This document shows, one piece after another, positions 30,769 to 39,796 of a DNA stretch of 64,000 nucleotides. The notes under the pieces were generated by a model. That model was not told where the DNA came from. It did no database searches and saw nothing but the letters and a program-made list of their open reading frames with translations. Location of the stretch: the sequence record OP555982.1; one strand, written 5' to 3'. The stretch is from Escherichia phage vB_EcoM-UFV11. The position numbers and the translations under genes were made by a program. Position 1 is the stretch's first letter. The number at the start of each line of letters is the position of its first letter.

Positions 30769-31242
30769 TTATTTGAATGATTTAACGTACTGAATAGAAC
30801 CTTTACTATTCACAAAGGCAATTTTACCATTTTTGTTATACATAGTAGCAGTACGTTGATAGCCATAAGTTTGTTTACCAGATTGATAACCAACTAATGC
30901 GAAATTATCTTCACCCATTTTATTCTGTTTAGCGCGAATGCGTTCATGACCATGTGCCATAAGAACCTTAGCATCACCAGTTGCAATGGACCGACGAGTT
31001 TTTTCATCTTCAACTGTATTAACAAAGTCGTCAAATGAATCAAATTTAGCATGAGATTTATTATACAGTTTTCCATCTACTGCATAATTATATCCTTGTA
31101 CATCCATCTCAACTTCTGTACCATCATCTAATACCGCAGTAATTTTCTGTCCTTTTTTAAATTTCAAAAGATCAGTAAAAGATTCAGCAATAATTTGAGA
31201 ATTAATAGCTGCTTCAGTAATAAATTCTTTATACGTTTTCAT
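30769..31242 (-). CDS. internal (head-packaged) protein with capsid-targeting leader
   Basis: 157 aa; N-terminus MKTYKEFITEA (T4 internal-protein leader, prohead-protease site after ITE). Confidence 0.65.
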   Translation of the reverse strand: MKTYKEFITEAAINSQIIAESFTDLLKFKKGQKITAVLDDGTEVEMDVQGYNYAVDGKLYNKSHAKFDSFDDFVNTVEDEKTRRSIATGDAKVLMAHGHERIRAKQNKMGEDNFALVGYQSGKQTYGYQRTATMYNKNGKIAFVNSKGSIQYVKSFK

Positions 31243-31258
31243 GTGTATCCTTTAATTT

Positions 31259-31576
31259 TTATTCTTTAGGGAAGTTTTTAGAATATGCATCATAAAGCTT
31301 ATTTCCAATACGGCGGAAAACTCTAGCCGCAAAACGATTTTCTGGGTTTTTAATCATGATTTGCATCATATAAGTACCCGCGTCAGAAAGAGCTTCTTCA
31401 TAGTACCCGTTAATTTCTTTAAGAGTCCTACGTTTACCACCAGGACCATCAACAGTGATTTTCCATTTACCTGTAGAAGTGCGACTTGGCGGTTCAACTT
31501 GTTCAATCCAGATATAACCGCCTTCTACACGCTGTCCTGCAACAGATTCTGCAATAAATTCTTTATACGTTTTCAT
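31259..31576 (-). CDS. internal (head-packaged) protein with capsid-targeting leader
   Basis: 105 aa; N-terminus MKTYKEFIAES. Confidence 0.65.
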   Translation of the reverse strand: MKTYKEFIAESVAGQRVEGGYIWIEQVEPPSRTSTGKWKITVDGPGGKRRTLKEINGYYEEALSDAGTYMMQIMIKNPENRFAARVFRRIGNKLYDAYSKNFPKE

Positions 31577-34434: not shown

Positions 34435-34710
34435 TTATTTCATATTATTGAAATATTCTTCTGCAATTTCGTCGTTATCATGGTAAACTTTAGAAGACAG
34501 TTTAACATAACCTTCAGCAGTGAACATGTTAATCACAACCTTTACAGTATACCACTGACCATCTTCATTACCCATTACTGCGTAAGTTTCAAACATCGGA
34601 TGATCAGGACCGATAACTTTAATATCATTCACTGTACGACCAAAATCTTCTGAAACACATTTCATAAAGAAGTTGAACAGTTCGCCGTAATTATCCATTT
34701 CATTCTCCAA
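34435..34710 (-). CDS. hypothetical acidic protein
   Basis: 91-aa ORF downstream of early promoter. Confidence 0.5.
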   Translation of the reverse strand: MENEMDNYGELFNFFMKCVSEDFGRTVNDIKVIGPDHPMFETYAVMGNEDGQWYTVKVVINMFTAEGYVKLSSKVYHDNDEIAEEYFNNMK

Positions 34711-34740: not shown

Positions 34741-34770
34741 TATAGTACCATAGAAGAACAGGGATGTAAA
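34741..34770 (-). promoter_or_regulatory. T4-type early promoter (GTTTAC-N18-TACTAT)
   Basis: GTTTAC 34770..34765, TACTAT 34746..34741. Confidence 0.55.
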
Positions 34771-34904
34771 CAGTTTTGTGAAAAATTTTTTAAAAAGTTT
34801 TGGGGAATTCTAGGGCAAGGAGGGGAAATTAAAGGATAGGATAATATATTATAAAGGGTAGAAACTAAATGATGCCTAGAGAGGCCTGGAAAGGCTTAGA
34901 TACC

Positions 34905-34932
34905 AAAAAGCCCCAACCTTTTGGTCGGGACT
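34905..34932 (-). terminator. intrinsic terminator (10-bp stem, AAAA loop, U-tract)
   Basis: minus-strand AGUCCCGACC-AAAA-GGUUGGGGCU then UUUUU; 8 nt after stop of the internal-protein-like gene. Confidence 0.7.
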
Positions 34933-34939
34933 AAGAATG

Positions 34940-35413
34940 TTATTTGATTTGTTTAGCAGACCAAATGCGGTCTTTAATAATTTTTTGGATGTCTTCAACA
35001 TACTCAAGAGAATGAGCATGTGGGTTATCTTTAAAGCTATGAGCACGAGCTAGCTTTTGGCCTTCAGTTTTGATTACTAAAAGCTCTTTAAGGATAGCTT
35101 CATATTTGGAGATAATTCCTTTAACGATATTTTTTTCTTGTGCGACTTTAGGATCTGCTTTAGGAGCAGGTTTACCCGAAGCCTTTGCAAAAGCAGCGCC
35201 AGTAGCAACTAAACTTTTCCAGGCCATACTAACTGCATTTCCCGTAAATCCTTCCGCTTTCATGTCGCGTGCGAACTGGAATCGTGATTCATCAGAAGCA
35301 TCTTTGTAAGAATATTTACCCGCTGCAATGGCTGCTTTTGCGACAGCTTGAATTTCGGTGCTAGATGCTTCATTTAACACCGCTTCATTTAAAAATTGAG
35401 TATATGATTTCAT
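34940..35413 (-). CDS. internal-protein-like gene with capsid-targeting leader, in its own late cassette
   Basis: 157 aa; N-terminus MKSYTQFLNEA (L-x-E cleavage context); Ala/Lys-rich; late promoter upstream and terminators on both sides. Confidence 0.6.
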   Translation of the reverse strand: MKSYTQFLNEAVLNEASSTEIQAVAKAAIAAGKYSYKDASDESRFQFARDMKAEGFTGNAVSMAWKSLVATGAAFAKASGKPAPKADPKVAQEKNIVKGIISKYEAILKELLVIKTEGQKLARAHSFKDNPHAHSLEYVEDIQKIIKDRIWSAKQIK

Positions 35414-35449
35414 CTTATTTCCTGTTTTAATTCGTGGATTTAATATACT

Positions 35450-35457
35450 TATTTATA
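35450..35457 (-). promoter_or_regulatory. T4 late promoter TATAAATA
   Basis: exact TATAAATA on minus strand about 36 nt upstream of the ATG at 35413. Confidence 0.6.
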
Positions 35458-35459
35458 CT

Positions 35460-35487
35460 AAAAAGCCCCAACCTTTTGGTCGGGGCT
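35460..35487 (-). terminator. intrinsic terminator, near-identical copy of 34905-34932
   Basis: AGCCCCGACC-AAAA-GGUUGGGGCU + U-tract on the minus strand; immediately followed by the late promoter. Confidence 0.7.
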
Positions 35488-35489
35488 AA

Positions 35490-35795
35490 GCCTTGCGGCA
35501 ACCTTGTCGGGGTTCCACCTGCTAAGGCAAGTGTTTGTACGAAACGCCGGGATTCGAACCCGGTTATTAAGCAGTTGACGCTACTCAATATTTTTAAAAG
35601 GCCATATCTCGACCATATCCGAACGTTCCGTCAAAAACGCTACTCGGCTTACGGCAAAGATATTTCCTCGAATCGATAATTCGGTGCGCCGTTTCTGCTG
35701 TGATAGTAAAGAGCCAGAACACAGTAAAACTGTGGGAGGAAACTATACTCCAGGGAACATCAGTCCGACGACTTACCGGTAGCGACCCGGTTTCT
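35490..35795 (-). ncRNA. structured non-coding region, candidate stable small RNA(s) (T4 species 1/2-like position)
   Basis: no ORF; GC-rich paired segments; contains tRNA-like T-arm CCGGG-UUCGAAU-CCCGG (35546-35562) without a full cloverleaf. Confidence 0.35.
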
Positions 35796-36145
35796 TAGTA
35801 TTCTTTTAAAGCATCAATTTGTTCACGGCGTTTACGCCATAAATCAATTGCTTCATAAGCAGATTCAGCATTTCGAATTAGCCGACATTTATATAAAGAC
35901 TTGTGATTTTGGTATTGCGTAGATAATGGAATTTTATCTAAAAGGTCTTTGCGTTCAAAGTATTCGTAACCATCTAAACCAAATGAACGATTTTTGAGAA
36001 ATTGCCAATGACCATATTCGTTTTCGACATAAACATAATCTGCATGCTGATAAAGCAAATTAATTACACGTTCAGAAATAACAGTATCATTATGATTAAA
36101 ATAGAATGTTAAATCATGAACTACTAAATAAACATTACCTTTCAT
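35795..36145 (-). CDS. hypothetical protein adjacent to tRNA cluster
   Basis: 116-aa ORF. Confidence 0.5.
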   Translation of the reverse strand: MKGNVYLVVHDLTFYFNHNDTVISERVINLLYQHADYVYVENEYGHWQFLKNRSFGLDGYEYFERKDLLDKIPLSTQYQNHKSLYKCRLIRNAESAYEAIDLWRKRREQIDALKEY

Positions 36146-36163: not shown

Positions 36164-36239
36164 TGGTCGAGGCAGTAGGGATCGAACCTACGACCCAGGA
36201 CTTAGAAGGTCCTTGCTCTTCCTTCTGAGCTATGCCCCG
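36164..36239 (-). tRNA. tRNA-Arg (anticodon UCU)
   Basis: manual cloverleaf: acceptor CGGGGCA/TGCCTCG, T-loop GGTTCGATCC, anticodon loop CUUCUAA, encoded CCA. Confidence 0.8.
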
Positions 36240-36243
36240 TAAT

Positions 36244-36319
36244 TGGGGTGACCGATGGGAGTCGAACCCATGACTACGAGAATCACAATCTCGAGTTCTA
36301 CCAACTGAACTACGGCCAC
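36244..36319 (-). tRNA. tRNA-His (anticodon GUG)
   Basis: acceptor GTGGCCG/CGGTCAC, T-loop GGTTCGACTCC, anticodon loop ATTGTGA, encoded CCA. Confidence 0.7.
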
Positions 36320-36433
36320 ATTAATACCTACTCCAACAATCATGATGTCTTCACACGAAATTAAGAGAAGAGTGATCAGTTCAACCCCTATAATCGCGTC
36401 AAGTAGATATTAATGTGACAGTTGTCACAAATT

Positions 36434-36508
36434 TGGCGGACGTGATAGGATTCGAACCTATAACCAATCGCTTAACAGGCGATCGCTCTGCCATTGAGCT
36501 ACACATCC
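36434..36508 (-). tRNA. tRNA-Asn (anticodon GUU)
   Basis: acceptor GGATGTG/CACGTCC, T-loop GGTTCGAATCC, anticodon loop CTGTTAA, encoded CCA. Confidence 0.75.
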
Positions 36509-36512
36509 AAAT

Positions 36513-36599
36513 TGGTGGGGAGTGATGGAGTCGAACCACCCGAGTCGCAATGACAATGAATTTACAGTCCACACCGCTACCTCTACGGGATAACTCCCC
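36513..36599 (-). tRNA. tRNA-Tyr (anticodon GUA), class II with long variable arm
   Basis: 87 nt; acceptor GGGGAGT/ACTCCCC, anticodon loop CTGTAAA, T-loop GGTTCGACTCC, encoded CCA; anticodon stem has G-U pairs. Confidence 0.6.
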
Positions 36600-36605
36600 T
36601 TAATT

Positions 36606-36680
36606 TGGTGGCCCTGGGTGGAATTGAACCACCATCTGGCGATTATGAGTCGCTTGCTTGAACCTTCCAGCTACAGGGCC
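36606..36680 (-). tRNA. tRNA with CAU anticodon (Met, or Ile if position 34 is modified)
   Basis: acceptor GGCCCTG/CAGGGCC, anticodon loop CTCATAA, T-loop GGTTCAATTCC, encoded CCA. Confidence 0.7.
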
Positions 36681-36681
36681 T

Positions 36682-36757
36682 TGGTGCTGATTGACGGAAT
36701 CGAACCGCCGACATCCTCATTACAAGTGAGGTGCTCTACCTACTGAGCTAAATCAGC
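36682..36757 (-). tRNA. tRNA-Thr (anticodon UGU)
   Basis: acceptor GCTGATT/AATCAGC, anticodon loop CTTGTAA, T-loop GGTTCGATTCC, encoded CCA. Confidence 0.8.
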
Positions 36758-36762
36758 AAAGC

Positions 36763-36852
36763 TGGCGGAGGCGATAGGATTTGAACCTATGAATCGCCGG
36801 AGCGACTGCCGGTTTTCAAGACCGGTGCATTAAACCACTCTGCCACGCCTCC
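36763..36852 (-). tRNA. tRNA-Ser (anticodon UGA), class II
   Basis: 90 nt; acceptor GGAGGCG/CGCCTCC, anticodon loop CTTGAAA, long variable arm, T-loop GGTTCAAATCC. Confidence 0.8.
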
Positions 36853-36854
36853 AG

Positions 36855-36928
36855 TCTCCATACAAGGATTTGAACCTTGGACCTCCTGATCCCAAATCAG
36901 GCGCTCTACCAAACTGAGCTACACGGAG
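36855..36928 (-). tRNA. tRNA-Pro (anticodon UGG)
   Basis: anticodon loop TTTGGGA, T-loop GGTTCAAATCC; CCA not encoded. Confidence 0.75.
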
Positions 36929-36938
36929 TAAATTAAAT

Positions 36939-37012
<74 letters not shown>

Positions 37013-37017
37013 AAATT

Positions 37018-37104
37018 TGGTGCGAGAAGTGGGACTCGAACCCACAAGGAAATCATTCCGCAGCATTTTAAGTGCTGTGCCTTTACCAATTTGACCATTC
37101 TCGC
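37018..37104 (-). tRNA. tRNA-Leu (anticodon UAA), class II
   Basis: 87 nt; acceptor GCGAGAA/TTCTCGC, anticodon loop CTTAAAA, long variable arm, T-loop GGTTCGAGTCC. Confidence 0.8.
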
Positions 37105-37105
37105 G

Positions 37106-37178
37106 CTGGGAATAAAGGATTCGAACCTTTGCATCTAGCAGTCAAAGTGCTATGCCTTACCAACTTGGCTAATTCCCA
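37106..37178 (-). tRNA. tRNA-Gln (anticodon UUG)
   Basis: acceptor TGGGAAT/ATTCCCA, anticodon loop CTTTGAC, T-loop GGTTCGAATCC. Confidence 0.75.
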
Positions 37179-38666: not shown

Positions 38667-38694
38667 TTTATTCTCCTCGGTAGTTGATAGGGTA

Positions 38695-38724
38695 ATAGTA
38701 TCACAACTAAAACCCTATGTAAAC
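38695..38724 (-). promoter_or_regulatory. T4-type early promoter (GTTTAC-N18-TACTAT)
   Basis: GTTTAC 38724..38719, TACTAT 38700..38695. Confidence 0.55.
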
Positions 38725-38742
38725 AACTTTGTGAAATATTTA

Positions 38743-39027
38743 TTACAAAAGATTTTTAGCAATAATTTTAAGCTGAGCTACTGAAATATGCTTGGCTTTA
38801 AACAAAGCAGTTTCTTCAGCAGGGGAGATAACGATTGTAGCACCATCTTTCTTAGCGGACCATCCATCACCCAGGTAAACAGTACCTTTGACTTCTTCGC
38901 CATCAACCAGGCTAATCATCGGTTTACCTTCACGTCCTTTGTTTGCTTTAATAACTTCAGAAGTAAGGGTCGCTTCAGTCAAAGTAGAAGCGTTAGTGGT
39001 TGAAGTGAATTCTTGATAAGTTTTCAT
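38743..39027 (-). CDS. internal protein at the ipI locus (capsid-targeting leader)
   Basis: 94 aa; N-terminus MKTYQEF; located between 57B and tRNA region as T4 ipI. Confidence 0.65.
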   Translation of the reverse strand: MKTYQEFTSTTNASTLTEATLTSEVIKANKGREGKPMISLVDGEEVKGTVYLGDGWSAKKDGATIVISPAEETALFKAKHISVAQLKIIAKNLL

Positions 39028-39057
39028 TTTATTTTCCTAATTAATTTTGATGAGGTA

Positions 39058-39087
39058 ATAGTATCACTACCTCATCAGCATGTAAAC
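39058..39087 (-). promoter_or_regulatory. T4-type early promoter (GTTTAC-N18-TACTAT) flanked by a 10-bp inverted repeat
   Basis: GTTTAC 39087..39082, TACTAT 39063..39058; tgatgaggta / tacctcatca inverted repeat brackets the -10. Confidence 0.5.
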
Positions 39088-39099
39088 AACTTTGTGAAA

Positions 39100-39796
<697 letters not shown>

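What the first reader, a model, noticed from the sequence alone, without database searches (positions are those of the whole stretch)
34905..35487. Extra internal-protein-like gene in a late cassette bounded by twin terminators
Seen: near-identical terminators (AGCCCCGACC-AAAA-GGUUGGGGCU + U-tract) at 34905-34932 and 35460-35487 flank one gene. An exact TATAAATA late promoter sits directly after the upstream terminator, and the 157-aa product begins MKSYTQFLNEA, the signature of T4 capsid-targeting leaders (MKTYQEF...E, cut by the prohead protease). Established knowledge: T4 internal proteins are packaged and injected with the DNA, and IPI counteracts a host restriction system. Inference: this is an additional injected protein, insulated as a mobile-looking late cassette in an otherwise early region between e and the tRNAs. 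It is a plausible anti-restriction or anti-defence candidate.
Basis: partly seen in the sequence, partly recalled or inferred. Interest (0 to 1): 0.55.

Follow-up and report, generated by a model that had tools for sequence, protein, structure and literature searches.

The report
Unnamed packaged head protein gene cassette
This T4-like phage carries a small self-contained late gene, missing from the model phages T2, T4 and T6, whose product has the address tag that sends proteins into the phage head for injection with the DNA; it is an uncharacterised member of a well-known class and a reasonable untested anti-defence candidate.

Summary
On the minus strand there is a terminator hairpin (35487..35460), an exact TATAAATA (35457..35450), a Shine-Dalgarno site, a 157-codon ORF (35413..34940) and a second terminator with one mismatch (34932..34905). 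The two terminators lie inside a 36-nt direct repeat spaced 555 nt apart.

The product keeps every residue shown to matter in the T4 IPIII capsid-targeting sequence: Y4, F7, L8 and E10. It has two L-x-E prohead-protease sites. The mature protein is basic (pI about 9.5), like the T4 internal proteins, and is under strong purifying selection.

Its 98%-identical orthologue (Gp140 of Yersinia phage fD1) is listed as particle-associated in a published virion LC-MS/MS table.

The gene is not a recent insertion. The same layout occurs in Tequatrovirus, Mosigvirus, Jiaodavirus and metagenomic relatives. T4, T2 and T6 lack it and keep exactly one repeat copy, which fits loss by recombination between the terminators. 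A second tagged gene (187 aa, same PHROG) can replace it or sit beside it.

All 100 database records listed call it hypothetical. Cleavage, injection and any anti-defence target remain untested. Verdict: a new member of a known kind, of moderate interest.

The parts
35538..35676 (-). rnaC (species 1 stable RNA) homologue, the last gene of the tRNA/stable-RNA transcription unit. Context only.
   Evidence: 98.6% identical to T4 rnaC over 139 nt.
35460..35487 (-). Upstream intrinsic terminator (hairpin plus U-tract), copy 1 of the twin. It is the terminator that follows rnaC in T4.
   Evidence: -19.5 kcal/mol. The T4 record X03016.1 annotates 'pot. terminator' at the homologous single copy.
35455..35490 (.). 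36-nt direct repeat, copy 1 (terminator plus short flanks).
35450..35457 (-). T4-type late promoter octamer TATAAATA.
   Evidence: An ATAAATA core lies 29-36 nt before the ATG in six lineages.
35418..35423 (-). Shine-Dalgarno sequence AGGAAA, 4 nt before the ATG.
   Evidence: Read from the sequence.
34940..35413 (-). 157-codon gene ('A') for a CTS-bearing internal-protein-like product of family phrog_2280. The stop codon is at 34940-34942.
   Evidence: (phrog_2280, 3e-60); dN/dS 0.06-0.09; no Pfam, NCBIfam or PADLOC hit.
35384..35413 (-). Capsid-targeting sequence, residues 1-10 (MKSYTQFLNE), ending in the L-N-E cleavage motif.
   Evidence: Y4, F7, L8 and E10 match the residues mapped in IPIII (PMC9026906). 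Leaders are compared.
35369..35383 (-). Residues 11-15 (AVLNE), a second L-N-E prohead-protease motif.
   Evidence: Read from the sequence. pLDDT is below 50 here, suggesting a flexible propeptide.
35189..35368 (-). N-terminal domain, residues 16-75. A compact three-helix domain that is the most conserved part of the family (AGKYSYKD...RFQF...AWKS).
35129..35188 (-). Lys/Pro/Ala-rich linker, residues 76-95.
   Evidence: pLDDT dips to about 55. Composition.
34943..35128 (-). C-terminal helical hairpin, residues 96-157. It is replaced by a different helical domain in Klebsiella and Yersinia phage homologues.
34905..34932 (-). Downstream intrinsic terminator, copy 2 of the twin (one mismatch, C to T in the stem, giving a G-U pair).
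   Evidence: -16.8 kcal/mol.
34900..34935 (.). 36-nt direct repeat, copy 2.
34742..34770 (-). Early-type sigma-70 promoter (TTTACA-17-TACTAT with TG) of the next gene, e.8 (34435..34698). This marks the return to early transcription.
   Evidence: The e.8 ORF is identical in T4-like relatives.

Best explanation
The locus is an autonomous late transcription unit that encodes a fourth internal head protein of this phage, from an unnamed family (phrog_2280).

Proposed steps:
- Transcripts of the tRNA/rnaC unit stop at the first hairpin.
- Late RNA polymerase starts at TATAAATA and makes a monocistronic mRNA of about 0.5 kb, which ends at the second hairpin.
- The 10-residue N-terminal capsid-targeting sequence takes the protein into the prohead scaffolding core.
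- The gp21 prohead protease cuts after Glu10 (L-N-E/A) and possibly after Glu15. This leaves a basic helical protein of 142-147 aa that stays with the DNA and is injected with it.

Once in the host it most likely acts at the first moments of infection. It could inhibit a nuclease-type defence, as T4 Ip1, Ip2 and Ip3 do with distinct GmrSD type IV restriction enzymes, or it could act as a DNA-associated protector.

Presence or absence of the unit among relatives arises by homologous recombination between the two 36-nt terminator repeats. T4, T2 and T6 are the deleted state.

Shown here: the anatomy, the leader conservation, the selection, the synteny and the exact indel boundaries. Shown in the literature: virion association of the orthologue. 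Inferred: late transcription, cleavage, injection and function.
For: - Anatomy and statistics.
- Leader: Y4 and F7 (targeting) and position 8 and E10 (processing) are the residues mapped in T4 IPIII (PMC9026906). The gp21 motif is L/I-x-E (same paper).
- Every family member from 1.84 billion representatives (13 hits) starts with a comparable leader plus an L-x-E.
- The mature pI is 9.5-9.6, against 9.0-9.65 for T4 IPI*, IPII and IPIII.
- dN/dS is 0.06 (versus HP3) and 0.09 (versus the Mosigvirus orthologue).
- Proteomics: fD1 g140, 154/157 identical, is marked PPAP in Table S3 of PMC8309999, while its neighbours g138 and g139 are not.
- Indel: T4, T6 and T2 have one terminator copy, with the rnaC flank on one side and the GGTATCTA flank on the other.
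- All four states exist: empty, A, B and A+B.
- Synteny: a terminator, a late-promoter-like ATAAATA, the CTS gene and a terminator follow the tRNA or stable-RNA genes in Mosigvirus, Jiaodavirus and metagenomic contigs.
- Functional precedent: Ip1, Ip2 and Ip3 each block one GmrSD variant. Five further GmrSD systems active against T-even phages had no inhibitor identified among the ten ip genes tested (PMC12373910).
Against: - No direct evidence of cleavage or injection.
- The fD1 virion preparation also contained many non-structural phage proteins (137 phage proteins and 672 host proteins). Particle association there therefore proves expression more than packaging.
- TATAAATA alone is not above chance in this window.
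- The family is broadly conserved and under strong purifying selection. That is less typical of arms-race anti-defence genes than of proteins with a general role.
- No sequence or fold similarity to Ip1-3 or to any known anti-defence protein.
Confidence: 0.7

Rival explanations
1. The protein is packaged through its leader but has no specific defence target. It would be a general DNA-associated head protein that helps charge neutralisation or DNA packing, or coats and protects the entering DNA end non-specifically.
For: - It is basic (pI 9.5), with a Lys/Pro/Ala-rich linker.
- It is conserved at one position across three genera with dN/dS below 0.1. This differs from the hypervariable ip1-locus proteins.
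Against: - It is dispensable: T2, T4 and T6 lack it at this locus.
- Ip2 and Ip3, long thought to be generic basic head proteins, turned out to be specific GmrSD inhibitors (PMC12373910).
Confidence: 0.2
2. It is a late cytoplasmic protein that is not packaged, and the N-terminal resemblance to the capsid-targeting sequence has no function.
For: Cleavage and packaging have not been shown directly. The only proteomic evidence comes from a preparation that also held clearly non-structural proteins.
Against: - The chance of the leader pattern is about 5e-8 per start.
- The leader is kept in all family members, even where the rest of the protein is 24-30% identical.
- The alternative gene B at the same slot also has a leader.
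- Late-only expression matches prohead assembly.
Confidence: 0.06
3. The 555-bp unit is a recently acquired mobile cassette (moron-like, or a late-gene analogue of PeSL mini-circles) that inserted into the rnaC terminator of this phage lineage.
For: - It is bounded by 36-nt direct repeats.
- Presence or absence falls exactly at the repeat.
- Four occupancy states exist among close relatives.
- Recombination between repeated regulatory stem-loops, and circular intermediates, are documented in RB49 and phi1 (PMC2839356).
Against: - The same gene sits at the same position in Mosigvirus, Jiaodavirus and distant metagenomic T4-like contigs, with diverged terminators.
- It is the majority state among the records found: A in 511 records, against an estimated 80-90 with the empty junction.
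- The terminator sequence occurs nowhere else in the window.
Confidence: 0.04

Closest known systems
T4 internal proteins IPI, IPII, IPIII (Ip1-3) and the named variants Ip4-Ip10 of other T-even phages
   Same: - N-terminal capsid-targeting leader MK(T/S)Y.(E/Q)F(I/L).E with an L/I-x-E gp21 site.
- A small, basic, non-essential protein.
- Polymorphic presence among relatives.
- Encoded as a single-gene unit flanked by repeated regulatory elements.
- The window itself carries Ip1 (90.5% identical to T4 IPI; PF11634) and the T2 IpIV orthologue (99.4%).
   Different: - No similarity to any of them beyond the leader; no Pfam family.
- It lies at a third locus (e.8-rnaC), not the ipI or ipII/ipIII loci.
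- It is driven only by a late promoter. Ip1 and the 105-aa CTS gene (31259..31576), the two whose upstream regions show one, are preceded by early-type promoters.
- It is conserved across genera rather than hypervariable.
- It is unnamed in all 100 GenBank records listed, including records that use Ip names elsewhere.
PeSL mobile regulatory cassettes of RB49/phi1 (Arbiol et al. 2010, PMC2839356)
   Same: A single non-essential ORF is bracketed by repeated stem-loop regulatory elements. The related genomes differ by exactly the ORF plus one repeat copy, and the unit is transcriptionally insulated.
   Different: PeSLs combine a sigma-70 early promoter with the stem-loop. Here the repeat is a terminator hairpin alone, and the promoter, present once, is a late TATAAATA. 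No mini-circles were tested. PeSL-like early promoter/stem-loop repeats do flank the Ip1 gene of this window (54-nt repeat).
Cassette B of relatives (187 aa, RB14ncORF136c; L009 978-1541)
   Same: Same slot after the rnaC terminator, same type of leader (MKTYAEFLTE/A), same PHROG (phrog_2280, 1.4e-53), basic (pI 9.5) and annotated hypothetical.
   Different: Pairwise similarity to A is limited to the leader, with a weak profile match in the C-terminal helices. Its promoter-like element is AATAAATA and its downstream terminator is different. It occurs in 165 records, against 511 for A.

Membership tests
T-even internal (CTS-bearing, injected) head proteins | N-terminal capsid-targeting sequence with the residues needed for targeting (positions 4 and 7 of IPIII) | tested here: met
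   Y4 and F7 are present. F7 is invariant, and position 4 is aromatic (Y or F) in nearly all members. The criterion comes from PMC9026906.
T-even internal (CTS-bearing, injected) head proteins | gp21 prohead-protease site L/I-x-E at the end of the leader | tested here: met
   L8-N9-E10/A11 and L13-N14-E15/A16. The motif is from PMC9026906. This is presence of the motif only.
T-even internal (CTS-bearing, injected) head proteins | Expressed when proheads assemble | tested here: inconclusive
   An exact TATAAATA lies 36 nt before the ATG, and an ATAAATA core lies 29-36 nt before it in six lineages. The octamer is not above chance in the window, and there are no transcript data.
T-even internal (CTS-bearing, injected) head proteins | Physically present in virions | tested here: inconclusive
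   The orthologue fD1 Gp140 is listed as PPAP by LC-MS/MS (PMC8309999 Table S3). That preparation also held many non-structural proteins.
T-even internal (CTS-bearing, injected) head proteins | Leader removed in the mature virion | not testable with these tools
   This needs semi-tryptic re-analysis of PXD026812 or N-terminal sequencing.
T-even internal (CTS-bearing, injected) head proteins | Injected into the host with the DNA | not testable with these tools
   No data.
T-even internal (CTS-bearing, injected) head proteins | Non-essential and polymorphic among relatives | tested here: met
   Absent from the locus in T4, T2 and T6. Four occupancy states are seen.
Ip-type inhibitors of GmrSD type IV restriction enzymes | Relieves restriction by a specific GmrSD variant | not testable with these tools
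   The precedent exists only for Ip1-3 (PMC12373910). The sequences of this family were not found in that paper's supplementary files.
Pfam IPI_T4 (PF11634) / DUF7412 (IpIV) | Sequence match to the family model | tested here: not met
   No Pfam hit below E = 0.1. The window's Ip1 and IpIV orthologues do match these models.
PeSL regulatory cassettes | Repeat unit containing a sigma-70 early promoter plus a stem-loop | tested here: not met
   The repeat is a terminator hairpin only, and no -35/-10 pair lies within it. The promoter is of late type and is not repeated.
PeSL regulatory cassettes | Genomes differ by the ORF plus one repeat copy | tested here: met
   Compared with the window, T4, T6 and T2 lack the ORF and keep one repeat copy.

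The most novel reading that the evidence does not exclude
phrog_2280 proteins may be an ancient class of injected effector conserved across genera. On this reading the confident three-helix N-domain, kept from Tequatrovirus to distant metagenomic T4-like phages, engages a conserved host factor or the phage DNA itself. The swappable C-terminal helical domains (type A, the Klebsiella/Yersinia type, and type B) would tune specificity. The e.8-rnaC slot would then be a third, overlooked ip locus. It escaped study because T2, T4 and T6 all lost it. It could hold the missing inhibitors of the GmrSD subtypes that restrict T-even phages and for which no inhibitor has been identified.
Probability: 0.2. 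Interest if true: 0.6.

Novelty: new member of a known kind. Interest (0 to 1): 0.4.

Why it matters
Internal proteins are the first phage proteins to meet the host. The three in T4 are now known to each disarm one variant of the GmrSD type IV restriction family, and several anti-T-even GmrSD variants still have no known inhibitor (PMC12373910).

This gene family carries the same address tag and is found in 511 sequenced T4-like phage records. It was never studied, apparently because the three laboratory T-even phages lack it.

It is therefore an easy addition to anti-defence screens: express the mature form in trans and look for rescue of T2, T4 or T6. It is also a natural test of how far the capsid-targeting sequence can diverge.

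The exact repeat-bounded deletion in T4, T2 and T6 is a clean example of how regulatory hairpins act as recombination sites in these genomes.

Tried and rejected
- Pfam, NCBIfam and PADLOC gave nothing for the protein. PHROGs gave only an 'unknown function' family.
- A profile search of PDB sequences gave only noise, with E above 0.04.
- The exhaustive profile search of 1.84 billion representatives found 13 proteins, and no bacterial homologue appeared among them.
- Scanning IMG/VR for the terminator gave only 5 loci and added little.
- A short 'empty junction' query meant to count genomes without the cassette failed as a clean count, because BLAST joined the two pieces in carrier genomes. The figure of 80-90 empty genomes is only an extrapolation from the sampled rows.
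- Literature searches by locus tag found nothing. The Repoila 1994 paper that defines Ip4-10 is not held, so I could not compare with those sequences directly. I rely instead on GenBank records that use those names.
- The fPS-2 paper has no proteome.
- A motif after the terminators (TTTNGGTATCTA) is not repeated elsewhere in the window.
- I mis-specified the first protein reference as 34940-35410, which dropped Met1. As a result, residue numbers in alignments A2 and A3 and in model meca627fe3c9f are offset by -1, and the exact-sequence cluster look-up for A failed.

Full report
**Identity of the window.**
The region is 100% identical to Escherichia phage vB_EcoM-UFV09 and 95-99% identical to several hundred Tequatrovirus genomes. 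Gene order around it matches T4: e, nudE, e.2-e.8, then rnaC/rnaD, the tRNA cluster, trna.2-4, ipI and 57B. All of these genes, including the finding, are on the minus strand.

**Checking the observation.**
Reading 5' to 3' on the minus strand:
- rnaC lies at 35676..35538, 98.6% identical to T4.
- A hairpin AGCCCCGACC-AAAA-GGTTGGGGCT followed by TTTTT lies at 35487..35460.
- TATAAATA lies at 35457..35450.
- AGGAAA lies at 35423..35418.
- An ATG at 35413 opens a 157-codon ORF that ends at 34940.
- A second hairpin lies at 34932..34905 and differs by one base.

The terminator sequence occurs only at these two places in 64 kb, even with three mismatches allowed, and never in 100 shuffles. Both hairpins fold far better than shuffled controls: -19.5 and -16.8 kcal/mol. 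The shared sequence extends to a 36-nt direct repeat with a spacing of 555 nt.

One caution applies. TATAAATA on its own is not over-represented in this AT-rich window (12 found, 10.65 +/- 3.55 in shuffles). The promoter assignment therefore rests on its placement and its conservation, not on the match.

**Is it a real gene, and is the leader meaningful?**
Comparing the gene with the HP3 orthologue gives dN/dS 0.06. Comparing it with a Mosigvirus orthologue gives 0.09. The ORF is therefore a protein under purifying selection.

The product begins MKSYTQFLNE/AVLNE/A. In T4 IPIII the first ten residues (MKTYQEFIAE) are sufficient for packaging. Mutational work placed targeting mainly at residues 4 and 7 and processing at residues 8 and 10, and gp21 cuts after L/I-x-E (review PMC9026906). 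The candidate has Y4, F7, L8 and E10, plus a second L-N-E five residues later.

The pattern K-[ST]-[YF]-x-[EQ]-F-[ILV]-x-E at residues 2-10 has a chance probability of 5e-8 per start. It is found in three of the 434 candidate starts in the window: the candidate and two ORFs at the ipII/ipIII locus. Counting the Ip1 orthologue, the phage has four leader-bearing genes:
- 30769..31242, which is T2 IpIV at 99.4% identity.
- 31259..31576.
- The candidate.
- 38743..39027, which is Ip1 at 90.5% identity to T4 (PF11634).

Beyond the leader, the candidate is unrelated to any of the others. The mature protein would be basic (pI 9.5-9.6), like T4 IPI*, IPII and IPIII at 9.0-9.65.

**The family.**
There is no Pfam, NCBIfam or PADLOC match. 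PHROGs places it in phrog_2280, 'unknown function'. tblastn finds it in 511 phage records. All 60 rows sampled, and the 40 listed, call it hypothetical (for example RB32ORF132c and ar1_137).

An exhaustive profile search of 1.84 billion representative proteins returns only 13 proteins, and none looks like a bacterial homologue. Every full-length member starts with a comparable leader and an L-x-E:
- MKTYNEFLMTE
- MKSYAEFLTE
- MLEYSEFLKE
- MKFKEFLAE
- MLKFNEFLAE
- MINFSDFLNE
- MKSFSSFLNE
- MISFNEFVDGNLITE

This holds even where the rest of the protein is only 24-30% identical. That conservation is the strongest sequence argument that the leader is functional.

The body of the protein has three parts:
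- A conserved N-domain of about 60 residues.
- A Lys/Pro/Ala-rich linker.
- A C-terminal helical hairpin. Klebsiella and Yersinia phage homologues have a different helical domain in its place.

**Published virion evidence.**
Yersinia phage fD1 (HE956711) has the same gene at the same place. It is g140, 154 of 157 residues identical. [quoted passage not shown] Its neighbours g138 and g139 (e.8) are not marked.

That preparation also yielded thymidine kinase, DenV, NudE and 672 host proteins. The result therefore proves translation and is consistent with packaging, but it does not prove packaging. The raw data (PXD026812) could settle both packaging and the cleavage site.

**Comparison with relatives: what the 'cassette' is.**
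T4, T6 and T2 have no such gene between e.8 and rnaC. Each has one copy of the terminator, with the rnaC flank on one side and the GGTATCTA... flank on the other. Compared with the window, they lack exactly the ORF plus one repeat copy.

Other relatives show a second gene at the same slot. 'B' is 187 aa with the leader MKTYAEFLTE/A. It occurs alone (G3F10, HY03) or in tandem after A (HP3; and OE5505, where both are frameshifted). B occurs in 165 records. It also falls in phrog_2280, although its direct similarity to A is limited to the leader plus a weak profile match in the C-terminal helices.

Four occupancy states therefore exist, and all the boundaries of the A unit lie in the terminator repeat.

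The arrangement is old:
- In Mosigvirus Shf125875 the orthologue (77% identical) follows rnaC. It sits between two similar, diverged hairpins, with AATAAATA upstream.
- In Jiaodavirus phiKp_22 it follows the tRNAs. A different hairpin is immediately followed by TATAAATA.
- Metagenomic contigs with 29-48% identical homologues show a tRNA-like RNA, a hairpin, C/GATAAATA, the gene and another hairpin.

The gene is therefore best read as ancestral in Tevenvirinae and lost in some lineages, including all three classical T-even phages. The loss would occur by recombination between the flanking repeats. This is the same logic as the PeSL-mediated deletions documented for RB49 and phi1 (PMC2839356). 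It is 'extra' only from a T4-centred view.

**Transcription context.**
The downstream gene e.8 has an early-type promoter. Ip1 and the 105-aa CTS gene are also preceded by early-type promoters with internal stem-loops. The Ip1 gene is flanked by a 54-nt direct repeat of such an element, which resembles a PeSL. The candidate is the only leader-bearing gene here that has a late octamer and no early promoter.

**Mechanism and function.**
I commit to the following chain: late expression, CTS-directed entry into the prohead core, removal of the leader by gp21, residence with the DNA, and injection. My confidence is about 0.7 for the packaging chain.

For function, the precedent is strong. Ip1, Ip2 and Ip3 share nothing but the leader, and each blocks one GmrSD type IV enzyme. 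Ip4-10 had no target among the systems tested, and five anti-T-even GmrSD systems remain without a known inhibitor (PMC12373910; PMC9391042). An anti-defence role is therefore the leading guess, at roughly 0.45, and a GmrSD-type target at roughly 0.3.

Three features keep a general DNA-associated role alive, at about 0.2: the breadth of conservation, the strong purifying selection and the basic, possibly HTH-like architecture. Nothing in the available tools can separate these two roles.

**Novelty.**
The class (polymorphic CTS-bearing internal proteins of T-even phages) and the recombination logic (repeated regulatory hairpins) are both established. What appears to be undescribed:
- This particular family.
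- Its locus.
- The fact that T2, T4 and T6 are deletion alleles.
- The late-only, terminator-bracketed expression unit.

I could not read Repoila et al. 1994, so there is a residual chance that the family has an Ip number. GenBank records that use Ip names do not apply one to it, and its sequence is absent from the supplementary files of the 2025 Ip study.

Noticed in passing
window 31259..31576 (-): A 105-aa ORF with a canonical leader (MKTYKEFIAE/S) sits next to the IpIV orthologue (30769..31242), where T4 has ipII/ipIII. It belongs to phrog_3966, 'unknown function', and has no Pfam family. It is another unannotated internal-protein candidate.
   Followed up: partly
window 38684-38737 and 39047-39100: The Ip1 gene (38743..39027) is flanked by a 54-nt direct repeat (81% identical, spacing 363). 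The repeat consists of an early-type promoter (GTTTACA...GATACTAT) with an internal stem-loop, so it resembles the PeSL cassettes described for RB49/phi1. A similar promoter and stem-loop precede the 105-aa leader-bearing ORF.
   Followed up: partly
L009 978-1541, L010 968-1531, L013 1438-2001: A second leader-bearing gene ('B', 187 aa, RB14ncORF136c) occupies the same e.8-rnaC slot in 165 phage records, either alone or in tandem after gene A. It is placed in the same PHROG as A, although only the leader is recognisably similar in pairwise comparison.
   Followed up: partly
L008 (vB_EcoM_OE5505) 967-2089: In this record both A and B are interrupted by frameshifts. A has a frameshifted N-terminus and is annotated as 144 aa. 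B is split into 106-aa and 81-aa ORFs. These could be sequencing errors or decay of both genes.
   Followed up: no
window 35538..35676 (-); L002 5690-5783: The rnaC (species 1 RNA) homologue is annotated as 'tRNA-Lys(ttt)', 94 nt, in MK327946. ARAGORN and Rfam (gathering threshold) call no tRNA there in the window, so this is a likely mis-annotation of a tRNA-like stable RNA.
   Followed up: partly
window 35795..36145 (-): A 116-aa ORF with no Pfam match lies between the rnaD homologue (35683..35795, only 79% identical to T4) and tRNA-Arg. T4 has nothing there and instead carries segB after tRNA-Arg.
   Followed up: no
window 36164..37178 (-): The tRNA cluster has 11 genes (Arg, His, Asn, Tyr, Met, Thr, Ser, Pro, Gly, Leu, Gln), against 8 in T4. 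It gains His, Asn, Tyr and Met and lacks Ile, and there is no segB homing endonuclease gene.
   Followed up: no
whole window: The late-promoter octamer TATAAATA occurs 12 times, which is no more than in dinucleotide-preserving shuffles (10.65 +/- 3.55). A bare match is not evidence of a late promoter in this genome.
   Followed up: yes
L014 and L016 (metagenomic contigs), upstream and downstream of the homologue: In distant relatives both hairpins that flank the gene are followed by a similar short sequence (TTTCGGGGTATCTA / TTTCGGGTATCTAGGG), echoing the TTTTTGGTATCTAAGCC found after the downstream terminator here and in T4. The motif is not repeated elsewhere in the window. Its role is unknown.
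   Followed up: partly
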